Position numbers and translations under genes: made by a program | Notes under the pieces: generated by a model | What the model was told of the DNA's origin: nothing | Seen by the model: the letters and a program-made list of their open reading frames with translations, nothing else | The model's database searches: none | Source of the DNA: an uncultured Clostridium sp. | Lineage (GTDB): Bacteria > Bacillota > Clostridia > Clostridiales > Clostridiaceae | Assembly (NCBI GenBank): GCA_964588775.1 | Contig: CAZPRO010000001.1 | Location: 113 to 64,112 of the forward strand | Direction: 5' to 3' | Length of the DNA: 64,000 bases | In this document: positions 14,629 to 61,172 of the stretch, piece after piece | How positions within the stretch are numbered: position 1 is the first letter of the stretch | How the letters are laid out: each line of letters opens with the position of its first letter

Positions 14629-14629
14629 T

Positions 14630-15856: not shown

Positions 15857-15865
15857 ATATTACAC

Positions 15866-16459: not shown

Positions 16460-16485
16460 TATCCTCTCCCCTCATTTATAATTAT

Positions 16486-17004
16486 TCATATTAGGAAAAT
16501 TACAATAATAAATCCTGCACACACTCCAACATATCTATATAATTTCACATTTCTTTTTGTAAGCTCATGAGCTTCCTTAATGCTTATTTTTAATTCTTCT
16601 TCTGTTATATCAAATAATGCTTTTTGTCCATCTATGGTACTTTCACCTAATGATTTAAAAAAATCAGAAAACAGACACACATCACTTTTTTCAAAATATA
16701 GATGCTCCTTTACTTTGTTATATTCCTCTTTTGCTGCTTCATAAATACTTTCAGCATTTCCATCTATAAGCTTTGCTCTCAAATTTAGAAGAATATGCTG
16801 CATAGGCTCACTACACTTTTTACTTACCTTCCCAAAGGCTTCTTCAATAGGTGAATAGAGAAATACTATTTCATTTTTCAGCATAAGAAGTATTTTATTA
16901 CATTCTTTAAGCTGCTGCTCCCTTTTTCTAAAGGATTCTCCATATATAAAACCGGCATATGAAAAACTTACAAATATAATTATAAGACTTGCTATTTTAA
17001 ACAT
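16486..17004 (-). CDS. spoIIIAB: stage III sporulation protein AB
   Basis: 172 aa with N- and C-terminal TM segments and a helical cytoplasmic domain. Overlaps the spoIIIAA stop. Confidence 0.85.
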   Translation of the reverse strand: MFKIASLIIIFVSFSYAGFIYGESFRKREQQLKECNKILLMLKNEIVFLYSPIEEAFGKVSKKCSEPMQHILLNLRAKLIDGNAESIYEAAKEEYNKVKEHLYFEKSDVCLFSDFFKSLGESTIDGQKALFDITEEELKISIKEAHELTKRNVKLYRYVGVCAGFIIVIFLI

Positions 17005-17939
17005 TCCTTTTCTCCCTTACTAATTTTATATATATTCTTAATAGTGCCGGCACCATTATCACTGCTTAAAACTACAACTCTTTCTATAATTTCATTTTCA
17101 ATTAGAGATGATAATATTTTCCTTTTACTCAAATCCTCTATGCATGACCCATGAATAGATGTTATTATTTTTACTCCACAGTTAAAGGCAGTAAATAGGG
17201 CTTTAACATCTTCCTCACTTCCTATTTCATCACATATTAATGCTTCCGGAGATAAACTTCTTACTGCCATAATAAGGCCATCCTTTTTTTTACAATTATC
17301 AAGGACATCACACCTTATTCCAAGATTGTTCTGAGGCACTCCCATATAACAGGCAGCAATCTCACTTCTCTCATCAATTATAGTTACTTTATGACCATAA
17401 TATTTAAAATCTAAAATATCAGCATCATCAATACCACTTGAAATATTTCTTGCTATATCTCTTAAAATTGTAGTTTTGCCACACTTAGGCGGTGAAATTA
17501 TTATGGTATTGTATATTTTATCTTTAGACACTATATACTTCATTATTTTATTAGAACATCCAATAACTTCACTGCTTATTCTTATGTTTACACTGGAAAT
17601 ATTCCTTATACCCTTAATTTGTCCATGTTCATTTATACATTCTCCCCCAATTCCTATTCTATGTCCTCCCTTTATTGTAATGAATCCATTCCTTAAGTCT
17701 TCTTCATAGGCATAAAGTGAGTATCCAACTGTCTTCTTTATTAAATTTTTTATATCTTCTTTGCTGCAAATATAATTAACAATGCTTTCTCCATATTTTG
17801 AATATACCAAAATAGGCTGTCCTATCTTTATCCGTATTTCATAAAGTTTTTCTTTAGTTATTCTTTCATAAAGTTTTTCATATAAATTATCAGGCATAAG
17901 ATTTAATATTTCTTTCTGTCTGTTTAAAATATTTTTCAC
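16992..17939 (-). CDS. spoIIIAA: stage III sporulation protein AA (secretion-type ATPase)
   Basis: Walker A SPPKCGKTTILRD and Walker B-like LICDEIG. GTG start (17937-17939) after AGAGGCGG. First gene of the spoIIIA operon. Confidence 0.9.
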   Translation of the reverse strand: MKNILNRQKEILNLMPDNLYEKLYERITKEKLYEIRIKIGQPILVYSKYGESIVNYICSKEDIKNLIKKTVGYSLYAYEEDLRNGFITIKGGHRIGIGGECINEHGQIKGIRNISSVNIRISSEVIGCSNKIMKYIVSKDKIYNTIIISPPKCGKTTILRDIARNISSGIDDADILDFKYYGHKVTIIDERSEIAACYMGVPQNNLGIRCDVLDNCKKKDGLIMAVRSLSPEALICDEIGSEEDVKALFTAFNCGVKIITSIHGSCIEDLSKRKILSSLIENEIIERVVVLSSDNGAGTIKNIYKISKGEKECLK

Positions 17940-18091: not shown

Positions 18092-19870
18092 TTACATTGT
18101 AATTAATAAACATTTATTTAACAAAAAATCTATTTCATTTTTTAATCTTACCAGTTCTTCTGTATTTAAGTCCTTTAGTTCGTTTTCATCATCCTGGAAT
18201 TCATTGCTTAGCTGCTTGTATAATATTGTTATTTGTTCCTTTTTCTTATCTCTTAAAATATCACTGTGTTTTTTTACTGCATATCCTATATCTTCAGCCC
18301 ATTTATTTACAGCTTCACTACTCATTTCTTCTGCATCTTTCTCCCAGTTTATAGATGTAAATAAAGCAAAAACAGAATCCCTAAATATGTTTAAATATTC
18401 TGTTATGGCTTTTATGGATGTTGCTTTTATTACTCTTATAAAATAAGAAAAATGTTTTCCCTTTTCATTGGAAAGTTCATCATTAATTCCTAATTTTTTC
18501 ATATTTGAATAGGTATTTTTTGTTTCCACACCTTTTTCATATTTTCTAAGCATATCTCCTGCTATTTTCTTTATATCATCTTCTATATGTATGTCAATAA
18601 GCCCGCTTAAAACTTCACCATAAGATGGCATTCTTTCTCTAATTTTCCCTTCAAAATCCTTAAGAAGATTTTTTAGTAATTCATCAATCTCTCTCTCTAA
18701 AACTCTCATTTCATCTTCTATATAATTTATAAGATTTTCAGTCTGCTCTGTTGTAAATTTTGATATATAGTATTCTTGAAGAAGATTAATGGTTTCATCT
18801 TTCTTTCTCTTATTTTGTTTATCATATATTATATTATTAATTTCTTCTTTTATGGTTAATGCAGCCTTATCTATATATTTTACTGACGATAATTTAATTT
18901 TAGCATATCCTCTTTCCACATTTTCCATAATTCCAGTTTTTTTATCTAAAAGAGCTTTATATAATTTTATACATTCCTCAATATCCCCTCTTTTTGATTC
19001 AATACCTGCAATTCTAGAATTAATTTTTATGTTACATTCCTGTAAAATGAAATCCTGATACCCTTTTAAATTATGTGCTAATTCTTCTCTTTTACTTTCA
19101 TCATTGGTTCTTTTATAAATATAGTCAAATAGCTGTCTTGTATCAGGATTCTTATCTGGAGAACTCTTTATTAAGAATGACTGTGCTTTTCTTTTTGTAC
19201 ATTTTTCAAAATTTTGTCCTATTTCAATTATTCTTTTATTTTCCTCTGTAACATCCTTAGGACACATTGTAACTGCCAGAATAATTTCAACATCGGAATT
19301 TATTACTTCACCTACATAACTTAAAAACTGAAAATCATATTCACCAAAACCAGCTTTATATGAAACTGTATATACTATAAAATCACTTTCTGGAATAAAT
19401 TCTTTTAAAACTTCTTCATGATAACTTTCTAATGAGCCATATCCAGGAGTATCAAACAATCTAAAATTATCATAGTCTTCATATTTTGACTGACCTATAT
19501 AACGTAGCCTGTGAATATTCTTTAATGGATTTATAACATAAGAATCAAACTGTTCTTTTTCAATTTTTCTGTAAGTACTGTCCTTATTAATTAAATAAAA
19601 AATATCTTCAGTATTTTTTCTAATGACTATTTCAGTTATTATGCTTGTAGTTGGTTTTACACTTTCTTTTAAAACTTTATTTTCAAATAAACTATTTATT
19701 ATTGTGCTTTTCCCACTACTGGTTTCTCCAAGCATGACAACATAATGAGCTGGATTTAATATTCTGTCTTTTATTAAGGAATTTCTATTTATTATTGAAT
19801 CTATTCCCATTTCACGTACTACTCTGTCTATTCTCTTTTGTCTACCTATACATTCCTCAAAAATATCCAT
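18092..19870 (-). CDS. dynamin-like GTPase (DLP-S, no obvious membrane segment)
   Basis: G1 GETSSGKST, G2-region PTTSIIT, G3 DTPG, followed by about 350 aa of Lys/Glu-rich helical sequence. Its SD GGAGG overlaps the stop codon of the upstream gene. Confidence 0.7.
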   Translation of the reverse strand: MDIFEECIGRQKRIDRVVREMGIDSIINRNSLIKDRILNPAHYVVMLGETSSGKSTIINSLFENKVLKESVKPTTSIITEIVIRKNTEDIFYLINKDSTYRKIEKEQFDSYVINPLKNIHRLRYIGQSKYEDYDNFRLFDTPGYGSLESYHEEVLKEFIPESDFIVYTVSYKAGFGEYDFQFLSYVGEVINSDVEIILAVTMCPKDVTEENKRIIEIGQNFEKCTKRKAQSFLIKSSPDKNPDTRQLFDYIYKRTNDESKREELAHNLKGYQDFILQECNIKINSRIAGIESKRGDIEECIKLYKALLDKKTGIMENVERGYAKIKLSSVKYIDKAALTIKEEINNIIYDKQNKRKKDETINLLQEYYISKFTTEQTENLINYIEDEMRVLEREIDELLKNLLKDFEGKIRERMPSYGEVLSGLIDIHIEDDIKKIAGDMLRKYEKGVETKNTYSNMKKLGINDELSNEKGKHFSYFIRVIKATSIKAITEYLNIFRDSVFALFTSINWEKDAEEMSSEAVNKWAEDIGYAVKKHSDILRDKKKEQITILYKQLSNEFQDDENELKDLNTEELVRLKNEIDFLLNKCLLITM

Positions 19871-19881
19871 ATTTTTACCTC

Positions 19882-21657
19882 CTAAGCATAATTTATTCCA
19901 TAGTCTCTTTGAATACTCATTAATAAATCAAAATCTTTCTTAAAACTTTCAATATGTTCTTCTGTATACTGGCTGTCATATTGTTTTTCTATACTTTTTA
20001 TATCATCCTTAAAACTATCTTCTATATTTTTCCTCATTGTTTTCATTGATTCATCAACTTCCAGCTGTTTTGCTCTTAAATCATCAAGTATTTCTTCTTT
20101 TAAATAATTCCTTAAATCTTCTATCATAGGTTTTAAATCCTGCATGGTTAATTCTGCACGAGTTTTTAATATTTCATGCTTCATATAGTCTCCAATAAGA
20201 GAAAATACTATACCAATTCCCATTCCTGTTAGAATACCTATTGGACCACCAAGAACAGAGGCTGCTGTTATTGTTCCTATTATTCCTCCTGATAGTCCAA
20301 GAATTGATGGAAGGGTATTTTCATATTTTACTTCACTTTCTTTGTTAAAAAATGAAATATTTTCATATGTTCCATTAAAATTTTTTATTGTAATGGTTCC
20401 TAATTCTTCATTTAGACTGTCTATTAAAGAACTTACACTTTTTAAAATTTCATCCATAATATCATTAATTGCTTTATCTGAAAGTTCCTTATAAATTACA
20501 CTTAATTTTTTTCCATCAACAATTCCCTTATCTACAATTCCCTTTATATCATAAGTAAGCTTTTCTATTTTCTCATCAATTAAATCTGAGCCTTCATTAA
20601 TTAATTTTTCAAGGCTCTCTTCTGCATTGTTTCTTATGCTTCTAAATCTTTTTTTATTATGACTTATTATGGTTTTTAGTTCATCTATCTTTTTTCCCTT
20701 TTCTGCTTCATTTTCATAACTTTCACGTTCAGCTACTGTACTAAAAGTTACAATCTGATCATGTAAATTTTTAAAGCATTCATTTAATTTTGTTTTTAAA
20801 TTATTTTCAAGATTGTCACTATAATTTTCGCTTACTTTAACAATTTCATTTATAACATTTTGTATACCACTGTCTGCATATTCCTGCAGGCTGTTTTCAA
20901 GGCTTCCTTTTAATGCCTTATATACATTAACTATGTTCACTTTTAAAGTTTTTTTATCATTATGTTCAATTGATATAGTTTCCAGCACACTTTCATTATG
21001 TTCTTTTGCATCTTCTGCATCCTCTGCAGTTTCATCATTCCATTTATTTTGAACAAATATGGTATTAGAAAGCTTTGACCATAAAGCACTTATAAAATTC
21101 TTTTCTGTGCGTGTTATAGGAGGATTAGTACGTATAATAAAAATACCGCATACAAGTTTATTTACATAATCTAAAGTTGTCTGCTGATTTTCAGGAGTAA
21201 GGCTTCCCACTCCTGGCAAATCAACCAAGACTATACCATTCTTTAATATTTCACACTGACTATAAATAATTATTTTTTTTACATTTAATTTATTTGCTTC
21301 ATTATAGTCATTATGAACATACTTTTCCAATTCACTTATATTAATTATTTTTTCAGGTTTATCATGAAAAAAGATTATAGCATCAGTATTATTACCATAT
21401 TTAATTTCTACAGGAACACAGGTTGTTTCGTCAACATCACTTGGCAGTATATTATCATTTCTTAAAACTGCATTTAAAAAACTGCTTTTTCCTGCTCCCT
21501 GAACACCTAAAACTGGCATTATAACCTGATTATTTTCCATATTTTTAATAAAATGATTAAAATATTCAATAACCCCCATTTCCCTGTTTTCATTCTTCAA
21601 ATATTTATCTACAAGATAATTAAACCTTTTGTCATTTATGATTTCTTTATAAATCAT
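19882..21657 (-). CDS. dynamin-like GTPase with predicted membrane-inserting hairpin (DLP-M)
   Basis: G1 GVQGAGKSS, G2-region ETTCVP, G3 DLPG, G4-like NKWND and a helical stalk-like remainder. Gly-rich hydrophobic stretch LPSILGLSGGIIGTITAASVLGGPIGILTGMGIGIVFSLIG lies near aa 445-490. Confidence 0.7.
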   Translation of the reverse strand: MIYKEIINDKRFNYLVDKYLKNENREMGVIEYFNHFIKNMENNQVIMPVLGVQGAGKSSFLNAVLRNDNILPSDVDETTCVPVEIKYGNNTDAIIFFHDKPEKIINISELEKYVHNDYNEANKLNVKKIIIYSQCEILKNGIVLVDLPGVGSLTPENQQTTLDYVNKLVCGIFIIRTNPPITRTEKNFISALWSKLSNTIFVQNKWNDETAEDAEDAKEHNESVLETISIEHNDKKTLKVNIVNVYKALKGSLENSLQEYADSGIQNVINEIVKVSENYSDNLENNLKTKLNECFKNLHDQIVTFSTVAERESYENEAEKGKKIDELKTIISHNKKRFRSIRNNAEESLEKLINEGSDLIDEKIEKLTYDIKGIVDKGIVDGKKLSVIYKELSDKAINDIMDEILKSVSSLIDSLNEELGTITIKNFNGTYENISFFNKESEVKYENTLPSILGLSGGIIGTITAASVLGGPIGILTGMGIGIVFSLIGDYMKHEILKTRAELTMQDLKPMIEDLRNYLKEEILDDLRAKQLEVDESMKTMRKNIEDSFKDDIKSIEKQYDSQYTEEHIESFKKDFDLLMSIQRDYGINYA

Positions 21658-21659
21658 GT

Positions 21660-22295
21660 TTATTCATCTCCATATTTACGTCTATTAAATAATTTATAAA
21701 AAAAAGATTTATTGCTGTATTCCAATTCCTCCATTATACTTTTTAGTTTTTTATCATGTTCTTTTTCATAATTACTAATTGTTTCCATAAGCATATTTTT
21801 TTCATCTATTACGCTTTTTATATTATTCATTTTATCATGAAGCAGCATTTTATTATCAAAAAAATTTCCTTCCACGCTTTTCTTCAGTTCATCAATTTTG
21901 CTGTTAACTGCAATTGTATTATCATTGTTAACTTTAACTCCTTGAAGCAATAGTGATGTATCTTTAATAAGCTTATTTATTCTTTCATTTAATATATTAT
22001 CTTCTTTAAGCATTACATTATTTATACATTCATTTAATACATCTTCTATAGATAAGGTCATTTTTGAAATACTTTTATTTATATCTTCTATTTTCTCAAT
22101 TATTTCTTCATTTTCATCAATTAGATCTTCTTTTAAATCATTAAGCTTTTTTTCTATTGGCCTAATACTAAGAGAAATATCTTTTTGTAATTCTTTTGAA
22201 ATTCTGCTTAATGAACCTGCCATTTCATCAGCCAGTTCTTCCATAATATTTTTAGTTACTTCATCACATTCTATTAATATATCATTATGTTCCAC
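21660..22295 (-). CDS. acidic coiled-coil protein of unknown function (operon partner of the DLPs)
   Basis: 211 aa, strongly Glu/Asp/Lys/Asn-rich with heptad-like periodicity. Basic/aromatic C-terminal tail SFFYKLFNRRKYG. GTG start with AAGGAGA upstream. Its stop is 2 nt from the next start (TAAacATG). Confidence 0.55.
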   Translation of the reverse strand: MEHNDILIECDEVTKNIMEELADEMAGSLSRISKELQKDISLSIRPIEKKLNDLKEDLIDENEEIIEKIEDINKSISKMTLSIEDVLNECINNVMLKEDNILNERINKLIKDTSLLLQGVKVNNDNTIAVNSKIDELKKSVEGNFFDNKMLLHDKMNNIKSVIDEKNMLMETISNYEKEHDKKLKSIMEELEYSNKSFFYKLFNRRKYGDE

Positions 22296-22310
22296 TATGT
22301 ATATTCTCCT

Positions 22311-24776
22311 TTACTGCTCTTTTTCTTTCATGAAAAACAAAAGTATTTCTTCAATTATTTTCCGCTCTTCTGTGCCTCTTGAAAGACAATTCTCAAGAAT
22401 CCGTTCTTTTAATTCCTTATATTCACTTAAAATCATGTTTTTTCTATTCTGACATTCAATAAGAAGCATATTATATATTGGATTTTTTGCACTTATAAGT
22501 ACATAGCCCATATTATTAATATCGTAATTATTTTTTATTTTTTCTCTTAATTCAAAAATATCATGAAGCAGTTCTTTAATTATATCTGCATTTATAAATT
22601 CCCTTGAAGAATCTATAACTATATTTAAATTTGTATTATTCTTTAATAGAAAGTGATTTAGAAAGACACTGTTAATTATATGCTTTTCTGTTGAACTTAT
22701 CTGTATTGCATTTATAATACAATACATAACATAAAATTTTCCAGCCTTGCTTTCTATATAACTAAATAGTTCATCTTTATAAATACAATTTTCATATATT
22801 ATTATTATGTTATCTTTTTCAATGTAACCATTATTTATTAATGATGAAATCTCATGTTTTTCCAAATTCACATTATGAATTCTATATAAAAACTGAAGAT
22901 CTATGGTATAGTCATATATCCAGAATACTTCTGGTGCTTTCATTTTATTAATAAATTTTCCAATTACAGCATAATTTCTTTCATAAAAATTGTGTGCCAG
23001 TTTATAAAGATTAAAATTAGTATTGTTCAGCGAACATTTTATATATTCTTCTTTTTTTAAAAAAGTGCCTTCTATTCTTTCTACATTACTATCTGCATTA
23101 TACTGTCCTTTGATTTTTTCTTTCAAATCCATCAATTCCAGATAAACTTTTTTTATTTCATTTAAGTTATAGTTGAGTTTTTCCTTTTTCTTGTAGCTAT
23201 TTCTATTTTCTTCAATAGTATTATATATATCATTTATACATTGTGCATAATTAGAACTCCAGCTATATAATATGGATGCAAACTTATTTTTATTTTTTTC
23301 ACATATTTCAATGACTTTATTAATAATTGATTCCTTATCAATAACATCTTCATCATAATTTTCCTCATCATATCCCCACTGCTTATTTAACAATGTAGAA
23401 ACAAACCTTTTTCCTCTATTTAATGTACCCTCTTTTTTCACAAGCCTTCTCTTTGTTTCATGCTTTGTCTTTATATCATTTATATCCAGTCCTTCTACAT
23501 GGTCACTGGGAAACATATAACTTTTCCTTAAATCCAGATTTAATTTTAAAAAAATATCTGTCTTTTTACTTTCACAGGCTCTTACAATATTTAAAATATC
23601 CTTTTCTGTCTGAAGATTTTCCTTATTTATACTCCAAATAATATCAAGATAGCTTCCCACTTCATTTGAGCTTTCAGTACATATTTTATCTATTACCTTT
23701 TCAACAACAGTATCTGTACTTTTTATTTTTTCTGCTATTTCATCTCTGCTCTTCTTAAAAAAGGCCATAAGACTTTCTATTTCATAGGCATCTATTTCTA
23801 CAATTCCATTAATTTTTTTTAGCATTTCATCTTCAGTTGAAATTATAAAATCAATTCTTTTTTCTATGCTGTTTAACCTCATTTTATGAAGCTTTGGAAT
23901 TATTTTTTTTGCTGCATTTTCTATAGCATGCACAAATAAATCCAAATTGGATGCTTCATATAAATGTGCATCCTTATACCAAGTTCCCTTTAAAGCATAT
24001 AACGCAGAAATCTGAATAATATCTGCTTCATTTAAGCAGCATGTGTTTAATAAGTTTCTGGCTCTTTCCATATGCTTATTTAATATATCATTCTTGGTTT
24101 CTAAAATAACTCCATCTTTTCCAAGCTTAGGCTCAATAGAATCAATCATATTTTGAATAAAAATAATTTCTTTTCCCTTTTCACTAACATAGGATATTTT
24201 TTCTTTATTAACACTATCGCTGCTAGCTTTAACTGTGCTTAAAAACACACATACATCAATAGTTGGCAGCAAAATTTCCAAAGTAAGCTTCTCATGTACT
24301 TCCAAATCACAGGCATCCAGCCCCGGACTATCTATTATTTGAATATTTTCATTAAATATAAATTCTGGAGTCTTTATATCGATTTGTTGAACATCATACT
24401 TATTTCCTACATTTACACTTTCATCTGCATATTGTTTTATTATTTCTTCATTTAAATCCTGTCCTTCTATTTTAAGCAGGCTTCCATCTCTAAAATAAAT
24501 AAGTGCTTCTTTGTTTACACCCCTGCCACAGGTAATAATAATGCTAGAACTTGGTTTAATGGATACTGGAAGTATTTTTTCTCCCAAAAGTGCATTAACC
24601 AAAGTTGACTTTCCACTGCTTGTCACACCAATCATGGCTATTCTTACTTTTTGTGTAACATGCTCTTCTGCTCTATGTTCAAACCAGCTAATATCGTCTG
24701 CATATCTGTTTTTTCTATATTCATTTTTTGATAAAATATCTATAACTTCTTTTATTATCGTACTTTCTTCCTGCAT
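22311..24776 (-). CDS. large dynamin-like GTPase with about 500-aa uncharacterised C-terminal region (DLP-L)
   Basis: G1 GVTSSGKST, G3 DSPG, G4-like NMID, G5-like ISAL in the first 300 aa or so. Start placed at MQEESTI (ATG 24774-24776, GGAGA 5 nt upstream). The track start at 24788 is the alternative. Confidence 0.7.
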   Translation of the reverse strand: MQEESTIIKEVIDILSKNEYRKNRYADDISWFEHRAEEHVTQKVRIAMIGVTSSGKSTLVNALLGEKILPVSIKPSSSIIITCGRGVNKEALIYFRDGSLLKIEGQDLNEEIIKQYADESVNVGNKYDVQQIDIKTPEFIFNENIQIIDSPGLDACDLEVHEKLTLEILLPTIDVCVFLSTVKASSDSVNKEKISYVSEKGKEIIFIQNMIDSIEPKLGKDGVILETKNDILNKHMERARNLLNTCCLNEADIIQISALYALKGTWYKDAHLYEASNLDLFVHAIENAAKKIIPKLHKMRLNSIEKRIDFIISTEDEMLKKINGIVEIDAYEIESLMAFFKKSRDEIAEKIKSTDTVVEKVIDKICTESSNEVGSYLDIIWSINKENLQTEKDILNIVRACESKKTDIFLKLNLDLRKSYMFPSDHVEGLDINDIKTKHETKRRLVKKEGTLNRGKRFVSTLLNKQWGYDEENYDEDVIDKESIINKVIEICEKNKNKFASILYSWSSNYAQCINDIYNTIEENRNSYKKKEKLNYNLNEIKKVYLELMDLKEKIKGQYNADSNVERIEGTFLKKEEYIKCSLNNTNFNLYKLAHNFYERNYAVIGKFINKMKAPEVFWIYDYTIDLQFLYRIHNVNLEKHEISSLINNGYIEKDNIIIIYENCIYKDELFSYIESKAGKFYVMYCIINAIQISSTEKHIINSVFLNHFLLKNNTNLNIVIDSSREFINADIIKELLHDIFELREKIKNNYDINNMGYVLISAKNPIYNMLLIECQNRKNMILSEYKELKERILENCLSRGTEERKIIEEILLFFMKEKEQ

Positions 24777-24941
24777 TTTTATCTCCATACAAATAACTTA
24801 TCTATGGCTATCTTATCATATTTTTATTACTTAACCAACGATATTTTTCTTAATTTTTATTATATTCACCTTAAAAATCCATTAACTTTGATTTTTTATA
24901 CAATTTTGCAGCCTTTTCTTAATTACAAATAAAATAACAAC

Positions 24942-36516: not shown

Positions 36517-36592
36517 AAAACAAAAAACTCCTTAATTTATCTGCTATTTACATTCAAATCCTATTCTACCTATAAAACATGATTTTGTACAG

Positions 36593-36632
36593 AAAAATGA
36601 GAAAGAAAACTTTTAACCATTTCCCTTCTCAT
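36593..36632 (-). terminator. rho-independent terminator after the carD-family gene
   Basis: On the minus-strand RNA, AUGAGAAGGGAAA pairs with UUUUCUUUCUCAU (13 bp including 2 G-U pairs), followed by UUUU. Confidence 0.6.
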
Positions 36633-36640
36633 CTTTATTT

Positions 36641-37138
36641 TTACTTAATAATGCTATTTTTTATATATTTATTTACCATATCTTTAGGAATATTCAAAGC
36701 TACTGCAAATTCATTATCTATATATTCTTTTGCTTTCTTTAAATACCTGTCATCCATAATTGACAATTTCTTACCTTCTGCAGCACAAATTTTCTTTCTT
36801 TCCAAAATAATTTTTATTAATCGCAAAAAATCACTACAGCTAAATTTACTGTACATTTCTTTAAATTTTACTTCTCTTTCCTTATTATCTTGTATCCATT
36901 CCACATTAAGCTTATTAATTCCCCTAATAAGTTTATCAACTTCTTCTTTGCTTATTATTTTTCTCATTACTACTTTATCATTATCAACTGGTGTAAAAAT
37001 CTTACCATTCTCATAAAGAGGTTCTAAAGTATAATATTCTTTTTTTTCGCCGCTTCTGTATAAATTTGGTATTCCAATATCAACTACTTTGCATACGCCA
37101 TTACCTCCATAAATAATATAATCATTAATTTTAAACAT
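36641..37138 (-). CDS. CarD/CdnL-family transcriptional regulator
   Basis: N-terminal Tudor-like FKINDYIIYGGNGVCKVVDIG. Start moved to MFKINDY (GGAGGA 6 nt upstream of ATG 37136-37138). Confidence 0.75.
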   Translation of the reverse strand: MFKINDYIIYGGNGVCKVVDIGIPNLYRSGEKKEYYTLEPLYENGKIFTPVDNDKVVMRKIISKEEVDKLIRGINKLNVEWIQDNKEREVKFKEMYSKFSCSDFLRLIKIILERKKICAAEGKKLSIMDDRYLKKAKEYIDNEFAVALNIPKDMVNKYIKNSIIK

Positions 37139-37259
37139 ATGTTTTCCTCCATATATCCATCTTTGTGTTTTTAACAACTATACAAAAACAAGCTGTAATG
37201 TTCTGTATGAGCCTATATTTACATTTTACCAACAAAAAAAATTTTTTGTAAGTTAAATT

Positions 37260-39020
37260 TTATTCTATATTTCTAAATACACCTAAAAGATCCAGTATTC
37301 CATACCCCCATTGAGGATTTGGATATACATCATTGGGTCTTTTAATTGTTCCTCTAAGAATATAGGTCTTTAAGGTTTCAGAATATAAATAGGGCTCATT
37401 CTTTTCAACAATTGCCCACTGCATTAAAATTGCTGCTGCTCCTGCCACTACTGCACTGGCTGCTCCTGTACCATTAATTACAACTTCTGCTTCCTTTGTT
37501 CCTATAGATTTTACATCTACTCCTCCACATGCTACATCAATTTGGTTAAATTCTGAATCAAAAAAATACATGCCGCTTGTGGGCTCTATACTAAAATTAT
37601 TCTGATTGTATGCTGCAACTGTAATACTATATCTTCCTGGTCCCGGATTTGTCATAGTTCCATAATTATCAGGAGTGCTGAATCTTGTTCCATTTAAAAG
37701 CAGATCTTTTTGAAGCATCCACATATTAAATGCACCATTAACTATATATTCACCATGTACACGACATTTCCATATGCCAGGCTGCAATTTGGAAAATTCT
37801 ATAGAAATCAATTCATCTCCCGTTAAATCATCAGGAAGATAGTATCTAACAATACCATAACTTCCTTCAAAAATAAATTTTTCAGTTTCAATTTTTTTCA
37901 TCTGTGCAGGTATAATTCCAGTACTTTCACCTGATGGAGAAAAAAGTTCAATAGACATGGTATCAGGATTATCTGCCCATAATTCCATTCTTAAATAATT
38001 CTGTTCTTGTGAAACATAGAATTCCACATCTCTAAACTGACCAGCACTATTAATGTATCCTGAAACATGGTTTGAAGCTTCTCCCTCATTTCCTGTTCCC
38101 GTAATAACTGTTATACCAATATTAAAGCATATTTCATCTATAAAATTTTCTAATATACCATTTAACCTATGATTTCCTAAAGTAGTTCCTAAGGGCAGAT
38201 AAATAACCATTGGAACATTATTTTTTATGGCATAATCATATAAGTATTGAAGTGCAGTCATAATAGATGCCATGTCATATACAGGAACTCTGCCCTTTAA
38301 ATTTTCTTCTATTACAAGGGCACGTACCAGCTTTACAACTACAAAACTACATTCAGGTGCTGCACTTATTACTCCCCTATTATTAACCCCTGCTCCTATT
38401 AAGGATGCCATTGCTGTTCCATTACCAAGGTCATCTACTGAAGAAACTATGTTATAGGGATTACCTCCATTTTTAAACTCGTTTATGGCATTATTTATCT
38501 GTTCATTGGTAAATTCCTTTCCAAAAGGTACATTGGATTGACCATTTTCAGTTATGGTCTGATCCCACAGACTTAAGATTCTGCTCCTATTGTCTTCATA
38601 CATAAATTCTTCATTTAAATAATCAATTCCTGTACCTATAAGACCAACTACAACATTCTTTCCTTTTAGCTTCATAGGAGCCATCTTTTGAATAATATCT
38701 ATATTAGAAGCTGAAACTGGACTTATACTTTCAATATTCTGTATACTGTCTTTTACAATTCCCTGAAGTGTATATAAATAATATCTGCTTACATATACAA
38801 TAGATGGAAATATATTGTTTCTATTATTGAAATTACTTTCATTAATACTATTATATTTAAATGTAACAATTGCATATTTTTCATTTATTACTGTCAAATA
38901 GTACTCCTTGCTTAAGACAGAGGCATCTTTTTCTATACTCCCCTGGTATTCAACAACATAACTTATATATGATGGGCTATTAAAAACATGGGATGGGGCA
39001 TTATTAAATCTTGAATACAA
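37260..39020 (-). CDS. Csp-type (germination-specific) subtilase homologue, catalytically dead pseudoprotease
   Basis: S8 subtilase scaffold with a Csp-like prodomain (YVVEYQGSI). Triad positions read GTGIDY (Asp to Gly), GNGT (His to Asn) and NGTGAASAVVAGA (Ser to Gly). The oxyanion Asn in GTGNEG is kept. Confidence 0.75.
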   Translation of the reverse strand: MYSRFNNAPSHVFNSPSYISYVVEYQGSIEKDASVLSKEYYLTVINEKYAIVTFKYNSINESNFNNRNNIFPSIVYVSRYYLYTLQGIVKDSIQNIESISPVSASNIDIIQKMAPMKLKGKNVVVGLIGTGIDYLNEEFMYEDNRSRILSLWDQTITENGQSNVPFGKEFTNEQINNAINEFKNGGNPYNIVSSVDDLGNGTAMASLIGAGVNNRGVISAAPECSFVVVKLVRALVIEENLKGRVPVYDMASIMTALQYLYDYAIKNNVPMVIYLPLGTTLGNHRLNGILENFIDEICFNIGITVITGTGNEGEASNHVSGYINSAGQFRDVEFYVSQEQNYLRMELWADNPDTMSIELFSPSGESTGIIPAQMKKIETEKFIFEGSYGIVRYYLPDDLTGDELISIEFSKLQPGIWKCRVHGEYIVNGAFNMWMLQKDLLLNGTRFSTPDNYGTMTNPGPGRYSITVAAYNQNNFSIEPTSGMYFFDSEFNQIDVACGGVDVKSIGTKEAEVVINGTGAASAVVAGAAAILMQWAIVEKNEPYLYSETLKTYILRGTIKRPNDVYPNPQWGYGILDLLGVFRNIE

Positions 39021-40839
39021 AATTCTTCACCACCATTTCTTCAGGAATTCTGAAAAATAATTTTCCACGAGAATACTCTTTAAATTTGTCATGTCTTGAA
39101 TATATTCCTGCTATATTATTAAATACCCCTGTAAAATCAAATTTTCCATACCCTAGTGATTTATCTGGGTATTTAATGTTATCACTTCTGTCAGCCCCTG
39201 CTGTAAGATAACTTATAATTTTTGCTGAATACATCTCCCTATCATTTCCATCAACAATTCCCCATTGCACCAGCAGAGCACATGCTCCTGCAACTATAGA
39301 AGCCGCTGCTGTTGAACCGCTGACCGAAACCTTTGTATCATTAGGTCCTACTGCATTTATATCTACTCCTGGTGCTGCTATATTCGGTTTAATAATCCTA
39401 TAAAGAGGAAATCCTCTTCCTGATTCAGCCATAACAGCATTTGTTATCTGATTATAATAAGCCACAGATATTACATTCTTAGTTCCCCCTGATGCTGTTA
39501 AGGTCTGGTCTGGATAGGGTTCAGTAAATACTGTATCAGGAGGTAGTATTTTATGGGGAGGCAGCCATATATCAAATCTTCCATCAACAATATATACTCC
39601 CTTTAAATTAAACTTCCATATACCCTTTTTTATATTTTTGAAATAAATGGTAATAACCTGATTACCAGTAATACTATCCGATACTTCATTTCGTACATTC
39701 AACTGAGTATTTTCATAAATAAACTTAAAATCCGTTCTTGAATCCTTAGGCTGTATAAAATTTGTATCCTGCCCTGAAGGAGATATGATAGATAATGCCA
39801 TTTTGTTAGGTTTACGCACCCATATTCTAAAATACAATTCATTCATATCACGAGGTATATTTAATTCCCTTGTCACCACTTCACCTGCATTATTCATAAA
39901 GCCTGCTGCATGACCAGCTGCTGCTCCTTCATTTCCACAGCCGCTTATAAACACAAGGCCTCTTATAGATGCTATTTCATCAACATATCTTGAAAACAAA
40001 TCACTACCATCATGACTGTAATCTGTTGCACCTACAGCATTTACTATTATCATAGGTTTATTTCGATATAGTGCATAACTCTTTAAATACTCAAATCCTT
40101 CTACTATAGTTGAATAATCATAAACTGAAATTCCAGTGATTTGATTTTGAGCAAGTACTTTTTTAAAAAATTCTGATTCTTTCAGCTTAATAATAACATA
40201 ACTGCAGTCATTGGCTATTCCCTTAAAATTCTCATCATATCCTCTTGCTCCAACAATACTTGCAATATTTGTTCCATGACCAACCTCATCCTTTGATGGA
40301 ACAATACTATAAGGATCTCCTCCCTGTCTTGCAAGTTTTATGGCAGCATTAATTTGATCTTCAAAAAATACTTTTCCACTGGCAACTCTATTGTATTCAA
40401 TGGGTTCACTCATATTCTGCCAGTTAAAATGATTCAGACTCTGATCCCATATTGCTTCAATTCTTGTGGTATCATCTTCTCTTATAAATTCTCTATTCAT
40501 ATAATCTATGCCTGTATCTACAATCCCTACAAGAACTCCTGACCCAGTCAAATTTAAATAAGGATTTTCTTTAATGGGTCTTATATTGCTCACATTATTT
40601 GCTGAAGTTCCTTCTAGAACAAATACACTTATATAACTTATAAATAGAATGGCTGGTATCCTATCCTTTACATCATTAATTATATCTCCAACAGCAGAAA
40701 TAACTGCATATTTTCTATTTATAATAGATGCATATATATTAGGTATTTTTTTTACCTGACCAATTAAATCTCCTCTATATTCAACAAGATATTTATATAT
40801 GTCTGACGAATTTATAAGCTTTTGGGCATATTCAGTCAT
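39004..40839 (-). CDS. Csp-type (germination-specific) subtilase homologue with Thr at the nucleophile position
   Basis: Prodomain YLVEYRGDL, VDTGIDY (Asp), GHGT (His), GCGNEG (oxyanion Asn). The nucleophile motif reads SGSTAAASIVAGA, against the canonical SGTSxAxP. Overlaps the downstream csp-like gene by 17 nt. Confidence 0.75.
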   Translation of the reverse strand: MTEYAQKLINSSDIYKYLVEYRGDLIGQVKKIPNIYASIINRKYAVISAVGDIINDVKDRIPAILFISYISVFVLEGTSANNVSNIRPIKENPYLNLTGSGVLVGIVDTGIDYMNREFIREDDTTRIEAIWDQSLNHFNWQNMSEPIEYNRVASGKVFFEDQINAAIKLARQGGDPYSIVPSKDEVGHGTNIASIVGARGYDENFKGIANDCSYVIIKLKESEFFKKVLAQNQITGISVYDYSTIVEGFEYLKSYALYRNKPMIIVNAVGATDYSHDGSDLFSRYVDEIASIRGLVFISGCGNEGAAAGHAAGFMNNAGEVVTRELNIPRDMNELYFRIWVRKPNKMALSIISPSGQDTNFIQPKDSRTDFKFIYENTQLNVRNEVSDSITGNQVITIYFKNIKKGIWKFNLKGVYIVDGRFDIWLPPHKILPPDTVFTEPYPDQTLTASGGTKNVISVAYYNQITNAVMAESGRGFPLYRIIKPNIAAPGVDINAVGPNDTKVSVSGSTAAASIVAGACALLVQWGIVDGNDREMYSAKIISYLTAGADRSDNIKYPDKSLGYGKFDFTGVFNNIAGIYSRHDKFKEYSRGKLFFRIPEEMVVKNFVFKI

Positions 40840-59219: not shown

Positions 59220-61172
59220 TTATTGTATAAAATCAGCCTTTCTATAGCTGGTCAATAAGGATAATGTACTTTCAATTTCATCAACTACATCCTGATAGCT
59301 TAAATATACATCTATACTAATACTGCTATAATCCTCATTTACTGTTTTTACAGCACCATAGATATATTTATTAGATCTAACCAGATTATAAATTATCTCA
59401 TTATTAGATTTTGACAGGTAGCCAATTACATATCCATTATAGGTTGTAACTGTATTTATATCACTATTATTTCTTATTGGTACAATGTATATAATACTTT
59501 TTTCCAATAGCTCATTATTAATTTCACTCATATCAACAAAATTAACACCTTCAACTTCTAATGTTGACAATAACACGTCCTTAACATGAGGTTTTATCAC
59601 GGCATATTTATTTATATCTATGTATTTTTTACGTTTATAGTTCTTTTTTCCTATAAGTATATCCAGTTCTTCTCTTAATATGCTGTTTACTTCTCTGTCT
59701 TTTATTTCTATTATTGTATCCTTATCATAATCATCTAAAATTTCTTTTATAATATTTAAATTATCTATTGCACATTTTCTTGTTTCAATAACCGGACTGT
59801 TTAATGCTTCCATATTTATACTTTTAAAAATATCTTCATTTCCTTTAAATTTAATATTGCTGATTATAATAAAATAACACACATGCTCTATTTCATTATA
59901 CTTTATGTCTTCAATCTTTATGGAATCCTGCCCGCTTAAAATATAAGATTTATTTAACTTATTTAATCCTTCAGTTAAAACAAGCCTTTCTAAAGATTTA
60001 TTCTCACATGAAAAAGCATAATTGTAAATAAATGGCGAATTAAAATTTCTTATAAATAAATTTTTAAATTCTGCCTTCTTTAACTTATATTTAATTCTTT
60101 CAGCACAAGCTAAAATAATATCTGCATCCATATCTATATTTATTAATTCATATGACAAAACTTCAGTCCATCTTTTGTCTTTACATATGTTTCTGCATTT
60201 ATAAAGCATTTCCTTACATATTTCCAAAAATTCTTCCTTTCTGGAATTGTCTTTACCACATGTGTTATATAAAAGAAAATCTTCAGCAAAATTCATTATG
60301 GCTGCTATACAATATAATGAATATATTCCTCCAAACTTTTCACTCACAGTATTAATAATATAATTGCATATTTTCAATCCAATATTAATTTCATTTATTT
60401 CATATTCATTAAATAGATATCTTCCTACATACATTGCAATTTTTTCAAATTTATCTTTATTATATTCATTTTCATCAATATATTTTTCAAAATTATATGA
60501 TAAAAGTGTATATTTTAGCATTTCGCTAATTGCTTCATTATTATTAAGACCTTCTTCTATAAGCCACTTTCTCATTTCTTTATTAACTACATTTAAAGAC
60601 ATAACAGATAAAATCCTGCCATAACCATAAGAGTTTTTACACAAATGAAAAATCTTATGGTTTTCATTTCTGTGCTTCAAAATCTGAATATAATAAAATA
60701 TGTATTCATTATGGCACGAAAATACTCTACATAATTTGTTTAGTTCACCATCATTTAATACAACTGCTACTATAATTGAAGCTTTTAGTGCTTCACTATT
60801 TTCAGTTTCTTTTATTATTTTTTTAAATACTTCTATGAGATCATTTCGCAATTCTGGTCTTTCACTCAATGACTGGGAAAAAAAATCAATAAAATAATCA
60901 TAATAAAATATTATGTGATTTCTTTTTACAAATATTTCAAATCCTTCATAAAAATCCTTTTCTCCATATGTATTAATTATTTTTTCTGACAATTTAGTGC
61001 TTACATTTATCTTCTGCCATTTTTCAAATTTTTCAGAATGACTGCTGCAATTTTGCAGATACTCATCCCTTCCTGAATACTCTAAATTTTGATAAGGATA
61101 TATTCCTTCTGGATTGATATCATAAAATTTTTTTACTTCATCATAAATTCTGTTACTTTTTTTTAATTTCAT
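59220..61172 (-). CDS. hypothetical 650-aa protein: helical N-terminal region, possible HIRAN-like C-terminal domain
   Basis: No catalytic motif recognised. The C-terminal 90 aa or so (LEVEGVNFVD...IYIVPIRNNSDINTVTTYNGYVIGYLSKSNNEIIYNLV...YGAVKTV...ISIDVYLSY) loosely resembles the HIRAN pattern. Confidence 0.4.
   Translation of the reverse strand: MKLKKSNRIYDEVKKFYDINPEGIYPYQNLEYSGRDEYLQNCSSHSEKFEKWQKINVSTKLSEKIINTYGEKDFYEGFEIFVKRNHIIFYYDYFIDFFSQSLSERPELRNDLIEVFKKIIKETENSEALKASIIVAVVLNDGELNKLCRVFSCHNEYIFYYIQILKHRNENHKIFHLCKNSYGYGRILSVMSLNVVNKEMRKWLIEEGLNNNEAISEMLKYTLLSYNFEKYIDENEYNKDKFEKIAMYVGRYLFNEYEINEINIGLKICNYIINTVSEKFGGIYSLYCIAAIMNFAEDFLLYNTCGKDNSRKEEFLEICKEMLYKCRNICKDKRWTEVLSYELINIDMDADIILACAERIKYKLKKAEFKNLFIRNFNSPFIYNYAFSCENKSLERLVLTEGLNKLNKSYILSGQDSIKIEDIKYNEIEHVCYFIIISNIKFKGNEDIFKSINMEALNSPVIETRKCAIDNLNIIKEILDDYDKDTIIEIKDREVNSILREELDILIGKKNYKRKKYIDINKYAVIKPHVKDVLLSTLEVEGVNFVDMSEINNELLEKSIIYIVPIRNNSDINTVTTYNGYVIGYLSKSNNEIIYNLVRSNKYIYGAVKTVNEDYSSISIDVYLSYQDVVDEIESTLSLLTSYRKADFIQ

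What the first reader, a model, noticed from the sequence alone, without database searches (positions are those of the whole stretch)
37260..40839. Tandem, overlapping Csp-type germination subtilases, neither with a canonical Asp-His-Ser triad
Both ORFs have the Csp architecture: a prodomain with the (V/L)VEY(Q/R)G pattern followed by an S8 subtilase core. They overlap by 17 nt.

The downstream 586-aa protein has all three catalytic positions replaced:
- GTGIDY instead of DTGIDY (Gly at about residue 129).
- GNGT instead of GHGT.
- NGTGAAS instead of GTSxA.

The upstream 611-aa protein keeps Asp (VDTGIDY) and His (GHGT). It reads SGSTAAAS where subtilases have SGTSxAxP, which puts Thr at the nucleophile position with Ser one residue earlier.

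In Clostridioides difficile, the degenerate Csp pseudoproteases (CspC and the CspA part of CspBA) act as germinant and co-germinant sensors rather than enzymes. In Clostridium perfringens the Csp proteins are active and cleave pro-SleC. A fully dead CspC-like protein beside a D-H-T variant suggests a receptor-type germination pathway and raises the question of what activates the cortex hydrolase. No sleC is adjacent.
Basis: partly seen in the sequence, partly recalled or inferred. Interest (0 to 1): 0.65.

Follow-up and report, generated by a model that had tools for sequence, protein, structure and literature searches.

The report
Degenerate Csp germination subtilase gene pair
An uncultured Clostridium-family spore-former carries two overlapping germination-type subtilase genes, one with all three catalytic residues lost and one with threonine replacing the catalytic serine, a state published for Clostridioides difficile's family but said to be absent from this one.

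Summary
Two minus-strand ORFs overlap by 17 nt: 39004-40839 (611 aa) and 37260-39020 (586 aa). Both have the full Csp architecture of prodomain, S8 core and jelly-roll insertion.

At the triad plus oxyanion columns, 206 of 241 aligned sequences read D-H-N-S. The 611-aa protein reads D108-H188-N303-T510. The 586-aa protein reads G129-N200-N311-G519.

- **Conserved module.** This is a stand-alone two-gene unit, a CspA-like gene followed by a CspC-like gene. The same unit occurs in C. septicum, C. perfringens, C. botulinum and about ten metagenomic lineages, never beside sleC or cspB.
- **Host.** It is a Clostridiaceae relative, the family published as having only intact Csp triads.
- **Dead copy.** It is under purifying selection (dN/dS 0.11). 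Its family has lost triad residues repeatedly.
- **Thr variant.** It recurs in six assemblies, always as ACA, one step from TCA. It probably arose twice.
- **Interface.** Positions matching the C. difficile CspA Arg896 / CspC Gln516 contact are conserved asymmetrically between the two families.

Best reading: a CspA:CspC-like heterodimeric germination-signalling module, with a dead subunit and an attenuated Thr subunit. This is a new variant of a known kind. Catalysis by Thr, and the identity of the SleC activator, remain untested.

The parts
39004..40839 (-). cspA-like gene (611 aa, 'W611'). Prodomain about residues 1-79, flexible linker 80-94. The subtilase core is interrupted by a jelly-roll insertion at about 310-425. 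C-terminal tail 577-611. Catalytic columns read D-H-N-T.
37260..39020 (-). cspC-like pseudoprotease gene (586 aa, 'W586'), TTG start. Catalytic columns read G-N-N-G.
39004..39020 (-). 17-nt overlap of the two reading frames, which suggests translational coupling. The same 17-nt overlap is found in L005, L006 and L008. The overlap is 8 nt in C. septicum and 14 nt in C. botulinum.
39027..39034 (-). Shine-Dalgarno-like GGTGGTGA, 6 nt upstream of the TTG start of the 586-aa ORF and inside the end of the upstream gene.
39310..39312 (-). Codon ACA = Thr510 at the nucleophile position of the 611-aa protein. The nearest relatives with Ser use TCA.
40516..40518 (-). Codon GAT = Asp108, the retained catalytic Asp of the 611-aa protein.
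40276..40278 (-). Codon CAT = His188, the retained catalytic His of the 611-aa protein.
39931..39933 (-). Codon AAT = Asn303, the retained oxyanion-hole Asn of the 611-aa protein.
39811..39813 (-). Codon AAA = Lys343, equivalent to C. difficile CspA Arg896 (heterodimer H-bond network). This position is R or K in 110 of 116 upstream-family members.
   Evidence: PMC12880746
38634..38636 (-). Codon GGT = Gly129, replacing the catalytic Asp in the 586-aa protein.
38421..38423 (-). Codon AAT = Asn200, replacing the catalytic His in the 586-aa protein.
37464..37466 (-). Codon GGA = Gly519, replacing the catalytic Ser in the 586-aa protein.
37365..37379 (-). Codons for Glu548...Thr552, equivalent to C. 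difficile CspC Gln516/Thr520. The first position is Gln in 111 of 118 downstream-family members and Glu here.
   Evidence: PMC12880746
40875..40882 (-). CATATTAT, a sigmaE/sigmaK-type -10-like element 43 nt upstream of the ATG, with AC 16 nt further upstream. Its status as a promoter is uncertain.
   Evidence: Similar CATAnnnT boxes occur at -32 to -38 in L001, L002 and L003 but not in L004-L006. Not tested statistically.

Best explanation
**What it is.** The two genes form a translationally coupled operon in an uncultured Clostridiaceae spore-former. They encode a CspA-like and a CspC-like member of the clostridial germination subtilase (Csp) family.

**Shown.**
- The downstream 586-aa protein is a true pseudoprotease. 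Asp, His and Ser are all replaced, the fold and most other conserved positions are kept, and the gene is under purifying selection.
- The upstream 611-aa protein keeps Asp, His and the oxyanion Asn but carries Thr at the nucleophile position.

**Inferred.**
- The two proteins form a stable antiparallel heterodimer like C. difficile CspC:CspA.
- The heterodimer sits in the spore cortex region and senses or transduces a germinant signal.
- It acts upstream of a separately encoded CspB-type protease that cleaves pro-SleC.
- The Thr subunit is a strongly attenuated enzyme whose hydroxyl is still needed, most likely for slow, intramolecular removal of its own prodomain rather than for turnover on SleC.
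For: **Family and fold.**
- Sequence matches to CspA, CspC and CspB structures reach E = 1e-67 to 1e-41.
- The AlphaFold models are confident: pLDDT 87 and 86, pTM 0.88 and 0.91.
- The best Foldseek hits are 6MW4, 9PR8, 9PR9 and 4I0W, with TM 0.87-0.92 normalised to the target over about 580 columns. Other subtilases score at most about 0.5 normalised to the query.

**Type assignment.**
- Both proteins align at 36-40% identity to the CspA domain of CspBA-type fusions, and at 29-32% to the CspB domain.
- In an NJ tree rooted on CspB domains, the upstream family is sister to CspA domains and the downstream family is a separate clade.

**Conserved module.** An upstream gene of about 605 aa followed by one of about 575-585 aa, abutting or overlapping, occurs in C. 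septicum, C. perfringens, C. botulinum and nine metagenomic loci. Flanking genes vary, and no sleC or cspB lies within the sequence retrieved at any locus, 6-10 kb or to the contig end.

**The dead copy is functional.**
- dN/dS is 0.11 at dS 0.23 (L005 vs L008). Intact pairs give 0.08-0.11.
- It retains 58 of the 71 columns that are at least 95% conserved in active members. The losses centre on D, H(+G) and S.

**Heterodimer.**
- The CspA Arg896-equivalent is R or K in 110 of 116 upstream members and variable in the downstream family.
- The CspC Gln516-equivalent is Q in 111 of 118 downstream members and variable in the upstream family (contact defined in PMC12880746).

**Germination role.**
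- The window also carries spo0A, spoIVB and spoIIIAA-AH.
- Related C. septicum 'cspC orthologs' outside the sleC operon are genetically required for bile-salt-specific germination upstream of CspBA and SleC (PMC11300598).

**The Thr is still constrained.**
- Thr (ACA) is invariant in six assemblies, and D, H and N are invariant beside it.
- Among 116 upstream-family members the nucleophile column holds only Ser and Thr (one truncated sequence is gapped there). One C. carnis relative has Cys. None has Gly or Ala.
- The concatenated tree puts the window group sister to a Ser-bearing pair at 98% bootstrap. Monophyly of all six Thr members is recovered in 1% of replicates, so Thr arose twice or reverted.
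Against: - No biochemical data exist for any member of this pair family.
- Germination involvement rests on homology, and on C. septicum genes whose membership of these two families I could not verify.
- Heterodimerisation was not modelled. The window pair has Lys and Glu where the family consensus has Arg and Gln, and the central salt-bridge residues of CspC:CspA do not map cleanly.
- From my own knowledge, Ser-to-Thr replacement in classical Ser proteases usually costs orders of magnitude in activity, so the Thr protein may be fully inactive.
- Strict conservation of pseudo-active-site residues is also seen in non-catalytic C. difficile CspC, where it is needed for folding (PMC7200643). Conservation of Thr therefore does not prove catalysis.
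- The rest of the genome is unavailable, so a cspB and a sleC elsewhere are assumed, not shown.
- The trees are NJ on p-distances with few taxa.
Confidence: 0.5

Rival explanations
1. Both proteins are completely non-catalytic. On this reading the pair exactly parallels the C. difficile CspC:CspA double-pseudoprotease heterodimer. Thr510 is kept only for structural reasons, and all proteolysis is done by a CspB encoded elsewhere.
For: - C. difficile works this way, and its CspC pseudo-active-site residues (Thr170, Gly485) are strictly conserved for folding rather than catalysis (PMC7200643, PMC12880746).
- Ser-to-Thr is generally crippling in Ser proteases (own knowledge).
- No compensating substitution specific to the Thr clade was found near the active site.
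Against: - D, H, N and Thr are all invariant across six members only 56-59% identical to the window protein. In the dead partner the pseudo-His position drifted (N or I) and the adjacent Gly changed to Ser.
- The upstream family shows only nucleophile-capable residues (S, T, C) at this position.
- Thr probably arose twice.
Confidence: 0.27
2. The 611-aa protein is a competent Asp-His-Thr protease that itself cleaves pro-SleC, or another spore substrate. The dead 586-aa partner is its allosteric regulator or germinant sensor. No separate CspB is required.
For: - Every pair examined keeps at least one subunit with a full D-H-N-(S/T) set.
- C. perfringens Csp proteins are active SleC-processing enzymes (PMC7200643 introduction).
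- The prodomain-to-core linker of the 611-aa protein is the only long low-confidence internal segment, residues 80-94 with pLDDT below 50. That is compatible with a cleavable junction.
Against: - Both proteins are closer to the CspA and CspC types than to CspB, the only type shown to activate SleC in C. difficile.
- C. septicum, which has the homologous pair, still needs cspBA for all germination (PMC11300598).
- Multiple-turnover catalysis with a Thr nucleophile in a subtilase scaffold is unprecedented, as far as I know.
Confidence: 0.13
3. The pair has a role unrelated to germinant signalling. Examples are processing of coat or cortex proteins during sporulation, or a non-spore function.
For: - The pair is never linked to sleC, cspB or ger genes in any locus examined, and its neighbours are unrelated housekeeping genes.
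- No conserved sporulation promoter could be shown.
Against: - The full Csp-specific architecture is present, including the jelly-roll insertion and a retained prodomain.
- Named relatives all come from Clostridium-type spore-formers.
- C. septicum genetics implicate non-sleC-linked csp paralogues in germination (PMC11300598).
Confidence: 0.08
4. The substitutions are sequencing or assembly errors, or the genes are decaying pseudogenes.
For: The window comes from a draft contig of about 65 kb belonging to an uncultured organism.
Against: - The same substitutions occur in five or more independent assemblies.
- Both reading frames are intact in all of them.
- dN/dS is 0.11-0.25.
Confidence: 0.01

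Closest known systems
Clostridioides difficile CspC:CspA pseudoprotease heterodimer (PDB 9PR8, 9PR9, 6MW4; PMC12880746, PMC13434707)
   Same: - The fold has the same three parts: prodomain, subtilase core and jelly-roll insertion. TM is 0.87-0.92 normalised to the target.
- The gene order is CspA-type followed by CspC-type.
- The CspC-type partner lacks a catalytic triad.
- The Arg896 / Gln516 contact positions are conserved asymmetrically between the two families.
   Different: - Sequence identity is only 27-28%, and scores fall far below the NCBIfam cut-offs for CspC_non_triad and CspBA.
- cspA is not fused to cspB.
- The substitutions differ. The CspC-like protein reads G-N-G instead of D-T-G. 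The CspA-like protein reads D-H-T instead of D-Q-A.
- The host is Clostridiaceae rather than Peptostreptococcaceae, so the origin is independent.
Clostridium perfringens Csp proteases (CspB structure 4I0W)
   Same: Same family and architecture, from the same bacterial family. C. perfringens also carries an orthologous stand-alone pair of 606 and 584 aa.
   Different: The C. perfringens proteins, including its copy of this pair, have intact D-H-S triads. CspB is sleC-linked and cleaves pro-SleC. The window proteins align to CspB-type domains at only 29-32% identity.
[quoted passage not shown]
   Same: - The organisms are close: 51-52% identity between the window proteins and the C. septicum pair at L001.
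- C. septicum has several csp paralogues in operons away from sleC.
- At least one has a non-Ser nucleophile.
- Genetic evidence supports germinant-specific sensing upstream of CspBA and SleC.
   Different: - All C. septicum paralogues keep Asp and His and have Ser or Cys. None is a pseudoprotease.
- The homologous C. septicum pair (L001) appears to be among the paralogues that were never inactivated.
Subtilases that act only through autoprocessing (e.g. PCSK9) and engineered Thr-nucleophile trypsin (own knowledge; not tested here)
   Same: These are precedents for two ideas. A subtilase can need catalysis only once, for prodomain cleavage. Thr can serve as a weak nucleophile in a Ser-protease triad.
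   Different: PCSK9 keeps Ser. Thr-trypsin is engineered, belongs to a different fold, and needed accommodating mutations. I know of no natural Asp-His-Thr subtilase.

Membership tests
Csp family of clostridial germination subtilases (S8A with jelly-roll insertion) | Peptidase S8 subtilase core | tested here: met
   Pfam PF00082 E = 2e-18 and 5e-10. PDB sequence matches to CspA, CspC and CspB at 1e-67 to 1e-41.
Csp family of clostridial germination subtilases (S8A with jelly-roll insertion) | N-terminal prodomain plus a central beta-barrel jelly-roll domain inserted in the subtilase core | tested here: met
   The AlphaFold models have an all-beta block at about residues 310-425. Foldseek gives TM 0.87-0.92, normalised to the target, to 6MW4, 9PR8, 9PR9 and 4I0W over 570-588 columns. 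Ordinary subtilases score at most about 0.5 normalised to the query.
Csp family of clostridial germination subtilases (S8A with jelly-roll insertion) | Encoded by an endospore-forming member of the Clostridia | tested here: met
   The window encodes Spo0A, SpoIVB and SpoIIIAA-AH. The best named Dxs and Csp relatives are all Clostridium or Inconstantimicrobium.
Csp family of clostridial germination subtilases (S8A with jelly-roll insertion) | Genetic linkage to sleC (canonical csp-sleC locus) | tested here: not met
   No sleC or cspB in the 64-kb window, nor within the flanks retrieved (6-10 kb or to the contig end) in any related locus.
Csp family of clostridial germination subtilases (S8A with jelly-roll insertion) | Presence in spores and a role in SleC activation or germination | not testable with these tools
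   Needs spore proteomics and genetics.
C. difficile-type CspC (NCBIfam NF040808 CspC_non_triad) | Score above the curated cut-off, with D-T-G pseudo-active-site residues | tested here: not met
   267 bits against a cut-off of 675. The residues are G-N-G rather than D-T-G.
C. difficile-type CspBA (NCBIfam NF040809) | CspB-CspA fusion protein scoring above the cut-off | tested here: not met
   308 bits against a cut-off of 1250, and only the CspA half is matched. The 611-aa protein is a single-domain Csp.
Pseudoprotease (catalytically dead homologue kept by selection) | Loss of catalytic residues together with purifying selection and a retained fold (586-aa protein) | tested here: met
   G129, N200 and G519 at the D, H and S columns. 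dN/dS 0.11. 58 of 71 conserved columns retained. pLDDT 86.
CspC:CspA-type heterodimer | Peripheral H-bond network between CspA Arg896 and CspC Gln516/Thr520 | tested here: inconclusive
   At family level the pattern is met: R or K in 110 of 116 upstream members, Q in 111 of 118 downstream members, and each position is variable in the other family. The window pair has K343 and E548/T552, a possible salt-bridge variant. No complex model or binding data.
Active serine protease of family S8 | Asp-His-Ser triad plus oxyanion Asn (611-aa protein) | tested here: not met
   D108, H188 and N303 are present, but the nucleophile column holds Thr510. It is Ser in 110 of the other 115 upstream-family members.

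The most novel reading that the evidence does not exclude
Thr510 is a working catalytic nucleophile. The 611-aa protein and its five relatives would then be natural Asp-His-Thr subtilases. They would have evolved twice from TCA-Ser ancestors. Their slowed chemistry may have been selected to make prodomain release, or substrate cleavage, a rate-limiting and signal-gated step in germination. In the window lineage the Thr enzyme is paired with a fully dead sensor subunit.
Probability: 0.3. Interest if true: 0.75.

Novelty: new variant of a known kind. Interest (0 to 1): 0.55.

Why it matters
**It contradicts a published generalisation.** Csp pseudoproteases are the germinant-sensing core of C. 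difficile. The field's stated view is that they are confined to the Peptostreptococcaceae, and that all Clostridiaceae and Lachnospiraceae Csps have intact triads (PMC7200643, 2020; PMC12880746, 2026).

**This locus shows convergent evolution.**
- The CspC-like partner of a conserved CspA-like/CspC-like pair has lost its triad repeatedly and independently inside the Clostridiaceae. The states seen are GNNG, GING, CINS, GRDA, DHDG and DYDG.
- That supports the idea that CspC-type proteins are primarily sensors or regulators across the clostridia.
- It also supplies natural 'before and after' pairs for studying how a protease becomes a receptor.

**The Thr variant is a natural experiment.** The recurrent Ser-to-Thr change in the CspA-like partner bears on whether that subunit needs chemistry at all. 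It would be a rare enzymological case if it proves active.

**There is a practical point too.** The stand-alone pair also exists, uncharacterised, in the pathogens C. septicum, C. perfringens and C. botulinum.

Tried and rejected
1. **Genome scan.** A genome-contig scan with the 611-aa protein was meant to find the source genome and close species. It returned only an unrelated Ignavibacteriales hit. The organism is not among the species representatives, so the rest of its genome (cspB, sleC, ger genes) could not be examined.
2. **Sporulation promoter.** A CATAnnnT -10-like box lies 43 nt upstream of the ATG. Similar boxes occur in C. septicum, L002 and L003 but not in L004-L006. At this base composition about 15 such matches per window are expected by chance (my own rough estimate, not computed). 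This is left as inconclusive.
3. **Compensating substitutions in the Thr clade.** Only residues 15, 316 and 510 are clade-specific. Loss of the highly conserved Pro equivalent to subtilisin Pro168 looked promising, but it predates the Ser-to-Thr change because the nearest Ser relatives lack it too. Rejected.
4. **Register shift.** The idea that Ser509 is the real nucleophile is rejected. The alignments have no gaps there, and position -1 is Ala in four of the six Thr members.
5. **Pseudogene or sequencing error.** Rejected by dN/dS and by recurrence in independent assemblies.
6. **Central CspC:CspA salt bridges (D429/R456 with R1036/D1008).** These lie in loops and do not map reliably from the pairwise alignments. 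Not used.
7. **Literature.**
   - Kevorkian et al. 2016 (the original Csp triad survey) is not held in the library.
   - Full-text searches found no report of a natural Thr-nucleophile subtilase.
8. **Complex modelling.** Not attempted. The structure tool returns no interface information.

Full report
**1. The observation**

The window has two minus-strand ORFs exactly as described. One runs 39004-40839 (611 aa, ATG start; called W611 here). The other runs 37260-39020 (586 aa, TTG start preceded by GGTGGTGA; called W586). They overlap by 17 nt.

Both hit Pfam Peptidase_S8. Both match the solved Csp structures over nearly their whole length:
- the C. difficile CspA domain (9PR9, 9T7M, 9SJ9_B), E about 1e-64 to 1e-67
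- CspC (6MW4), about 1e-54 to 1e-57
- C. perfringens CspB (4I0W), 1e-41 to 1e-51

Neither reaches the NCBIfam cut-offs for C. difficile-type CspBA or CspC: 308 against 1250 bits, and 267 against 675 bits. They are Csp-family members but not orthologues of the C. difficile proteins.

**2. The catalytic columns**

I aligned the two proteins with 239 homologues.
- At the Asp / His / oxyanion-Asn / Ser columns, 206 of 241 sequences read D-H-N-S.
- W611 reads D108-H188-N303-T510.
- W586 reads G129-N200-N311-G519.

The pairwise alignments to C. difficile CspA agree with this. H188 and N200 fall on Gln757, and T510 and G519 fall on Ala1064. Those are the published pseudo-active-site positions (PMC7200643). 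The chain-to-CspBA numbering offset of 581 was validated on five residues. The CspB halves of CspBA-type fusions, which carry the canonical GTSMATP motif, put their Ser in the same column.

The register-shift alternative fails for three reasons:
- There are no gaps in that region, and the invariant Gly is at -2.
- The AlphaFold helix starts at 509.
- In the six Thr-bearing proteins the -1 residue is Ser twice and Ala four times, while Thr is invariant.

**3. What the pair is**

*Conserved module.* The two-gene arrangement is widespread. An upstream gene of about 600-630 aa abuts or overlaps a downstream gene of about 573-588 aa. It occurs in:
- C. septicum (L001)
- C. perfringens (L004)
- C. 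botulinum (L013)
- nine metagenomic or MAG loci (L002, L003, L005, L006, L008-L012)

Flanking genes are unrelated from locus to locus. No sleC or cspB lies within the 6-10 kb retrieved on each side, or within the contig where contigs are shorter.

*Type assignment.* Both window proteins align at 36-40% identity to the CspA half of CspBA-type fusions and at only 29-32% to the CspB half. In an NJ tree rooted on CspB domains, the upstream family is sister to CspA domains and the downstream family forms its own clade.

*Fold.* The AlphaFold models are confident: pLDDT 87.1 and 86.0, pTM 0.88 and 0.91. Foldseek finds CspC, CspC:CspA, CspA and CspB with TM 0.87-0.92 normalised to the target over about 570-588 columns. 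The score then drops sharply to ordinary subtilases. The Csp-specific architecture of prodomain, subtilase core and jelly-roll is therefore present in both.

**4. The host**

The window also encodes Spo0A, SpoIVB, RecN, ArgR, Dxs and the SpoIIIAA-AH operon. G+C is about 29%. The best named relatives of Dxs are all Clostridium species at 64-66% identity. The best named relatives of the Csp proteins are Inconstantimicrobium porci, C. septicum and C. chauvoei at about 50%. The organism is an uncultured lineage allied to Clostridium sensu stricto, not a member of the Peptostreptococcaceae. It is absent from the species-representative genome collection, so the rest of its genome could not be inspected.

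**5. The degenerate states are real and selected**

| Locus | Upstream | Downstream |
|---|---|---|
| window | DHNT | GNNG |
| L006 | DHNT | GNNG |
| L005, L008 | DHNT | GING |
| L002, L003 | DHNT | DHNS |
| L009 | DHNS | CINS |
| L010 | DHNS | GRDA |
| L011 | DHNS | DHDG |
| L012 | DHNS | D, H and S present (partial gene) |
| I. porci | DHNS | DHDS |
| C. septicum, C. perfringens | DHNS | DHNS |

*Selection on the dead copy.*
- Between L005 and L008 (dS about 0.23, unsaturated), dN/dS is 0.11 for the dead downstream gene and 0.18 for the Thr gene.
- The intact L002/L003 downstream gene gives 0.08.
- Of 71 columns at least 95% conserved in 200 D-H-N-S members, the dead clade retains 58. Its losses centre on Asp, His (plus the adjacent Gly) and Ser.
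- The Thr clade retains 65 of the 71.

The downstream protein is a selected pseudoenzyme, not a decaying gene.

**6. The threonine**

- All six Thr members use ACA. The nearest Ser relatives (L009, L010, L012) use TCA, one transversion away.
- In a bootstrapped NJ tree of concatenated pairs, the window group (window, L005, L006, L008) is sister to L009 (Ser) in 98% of replicates. Monophyly of all six Thr members is recovered in 1%. Thr therefore arose twice, or arose once and reverted.
- Within the 116-member upstream family the nucleophile column holds only Ser and Thr (one truncated sequence is gapped there).
- In a survey of 150 representatives at 50% identity (209 Csp domains), Thr occurs only in the query. 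A Cys variant occurs in an upstream-type protein of C. carnis. Gly, Ala and Asp variants are frequent in other Csp lineages.
- No active-site co-substitution specific to the Thr clade was found. The one candidate, loss of the Pro equivalent to subtilisin Pro168, predates the change.

I read this as continued constraint for a hydroxyl or thiol at this position, which favours residual chemistry such as slow autoprocessing. It does not prove it. C. difficile CspC also conserves its non-catalytic pseudo-active-site residues strictly, for folding reasons (PMC7200643).

**7. Evidence for a CspA:CspC-like heterodimer**

In the C. difficile heterodimer, CspA Arg896 hydrogen-bonds CspC Gln516 and Thr520 (PMC12880746).
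- At the Arg896-equivalent column, the upstream family has R or K in 110 of 116 members. The downstream family is variable there.
- At the Gln516-equivalent column, the downstream family has Q in 111 of 118 members. The upstream family is variable there.

This asymmetric pattern matches upstream = CspA-type and downstream = CspC-type. Together with the translational coupling, it supports a heterodimer. The window pair has K343 and E548/T552, which could form a salt bridge. That is a single case, and no complex was modelled.

**8. Most likely mechanism**

*Shown:* family, architecture, triad states, selection, and a conserved stand-alone operon in a spore-former.

*Inferred:*
- The two proteins assemble into a stable heterodimer in the spore.
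- The dead CspC-like subunit acts as sensor or regulator.
- The Thr subunit is attenuated, at most self-processing.
- The signal passes to a CspB-type protease and SleC encoded elsewhere.

Support for the germination role comes from C. septicum. There, csp paralogues outside the sleC operon are required for bile-salt-specific germination, and cspBA and sleC are required for all of it (PMC11300598). I could not verify which of those genes belong to the two families defined here.

*Rivals:*
- a fully non-catalytic pair like that of C. difficile
- a competent Asp-His-Thr protease that itself activates SleC
- a non-germination function
- an artefact, which is refuted

**9. Comparison with what is known, and novelty**

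Two papers from the leading laboratory state that Clostridiaceae and Lachnospiraceae Csp homologues all have intact triads, and that pseudoproteases are a Peptostreptococcaceae trait (PMC7200643; PMC12880746). The data here show otherwise:
- The CspC-like partner has lost triad residues repeatedly inside a Clostridiaceae clade. There are at least three or four separate events, judged from intact members nested among degenerate ones.
- The oxyanion Asn has become Asp in the I. porci group.
- The CspA-like partner has acquired Thr.

Triad-degenerate Csp domains are not rare in metagenomic sequence space: about 30 of about 180 complete representative domains. The concept itself is known from C. 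difficile. This is therefore a new variant of a known kind, not a new category. The Thr state is the most unusual element.

**10. Limits**

- There is no biochemistry for any member.
- The trees are NJ on p-distances.
- The source genome is unavailable.
- Promoter evidence is inconclusive.
- The statement that Ser-to-Thr is usually crippling rests on my own knowledge of serine-protease enzymology, not on a tool result.

Noticed in passing
window 18092-24788 (-): Three tandem dynamin-family GTPase genes lie at 18092-19870, 19882-21657 and 22311-24788. A 211-aa ORF with no family hit (21660-22295) sits between them. The group lies next to the spoIIIAA-AH operon, so a sporulation-linked membrane-remodelling role is conceivable.
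   Followed up: partly
window 59220-61172 (-): A 650-aa ORF has no Pfam or NCBIfam match at all. It lies between a Mur-ligase-family gene and an NHL/beta-propeller gene.
   Followed up: partly
window 393-17939 (-): This stretch holds a classic sporulation neighbourhood. It contains spo0A (393-1268), spoIVB (1593-2762), recN, argR, nadK, dxs, ispA, xseA and folD, then spoIIIAA-AH (12865-17939). It confirms a chromosomal region of an endospore-former.
   Followed up: yes
proteins P0360, P0361, P0364 (representative library): Some Csp fusions are giant. P0360 is 2411 aa with four Csp domains, one of them D-H-N-C. P0361 is 1739 aa with three domains. P0364 is 1242 aa with two domains, both triad-dead (GHGA and GYNA). 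No organism or context information is available.
   Followed up: partly
downstream-family clade around P0148 (Inconstantimicrobium porci) and 16 metagenomic relatives: The oxyanion-hole Asn is replaced by Asp (motif SGDEG, state D-H-D-S) throughout a 17-member clade that includes a cultured species. One member, P0147, has gone further to D-Y-D-G. This may be an intermediate stage of catalytic decay.
   Followed up: partly
P0153 cluster (Clostridium cadaveris) and P0382 (Clostridium carnis): Cys replaces the nucleophile Ser (D-H-N-C) in a downstream-type Csp of C. cadaveris and in an upstream-type Csp of C. carnis. This echoes the D-H-C CspC-1718 reported for C. septicum.
   Followed up: partly
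L009 10001-11767 (SRR31431544): The sister lineage of the window group has an intact upstream gene (Ser, TCA). Its downstream gene reads C-I-N-S: Asp has become Cys, His has become Ile, and Ser is kept. This suggests that Asp and His were lost before Ser in the lineage leading to the window's dead copy.
   Followed up: partly
window 36579-37016 (+): A 145-aa low-complexity ORF lies antisense to the CarD/TRCF-RID-domain gene (36641-37177, -). It is almost certainly not a gene.
   Followed up: no
W611 residues 577-611 (window 39007-39111): Upstream-family proteins carry a C-terminal tail of about 35 residues beyond the subtilase core, ending in a conserved '...LFxRIP' motif. The tail is absent from the downstream family. 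AlphaFold predicts it as two short strands at low confidence. In C. difficile CspB a C-terminal extension wedges into the dimer partner.
   Followed up: no
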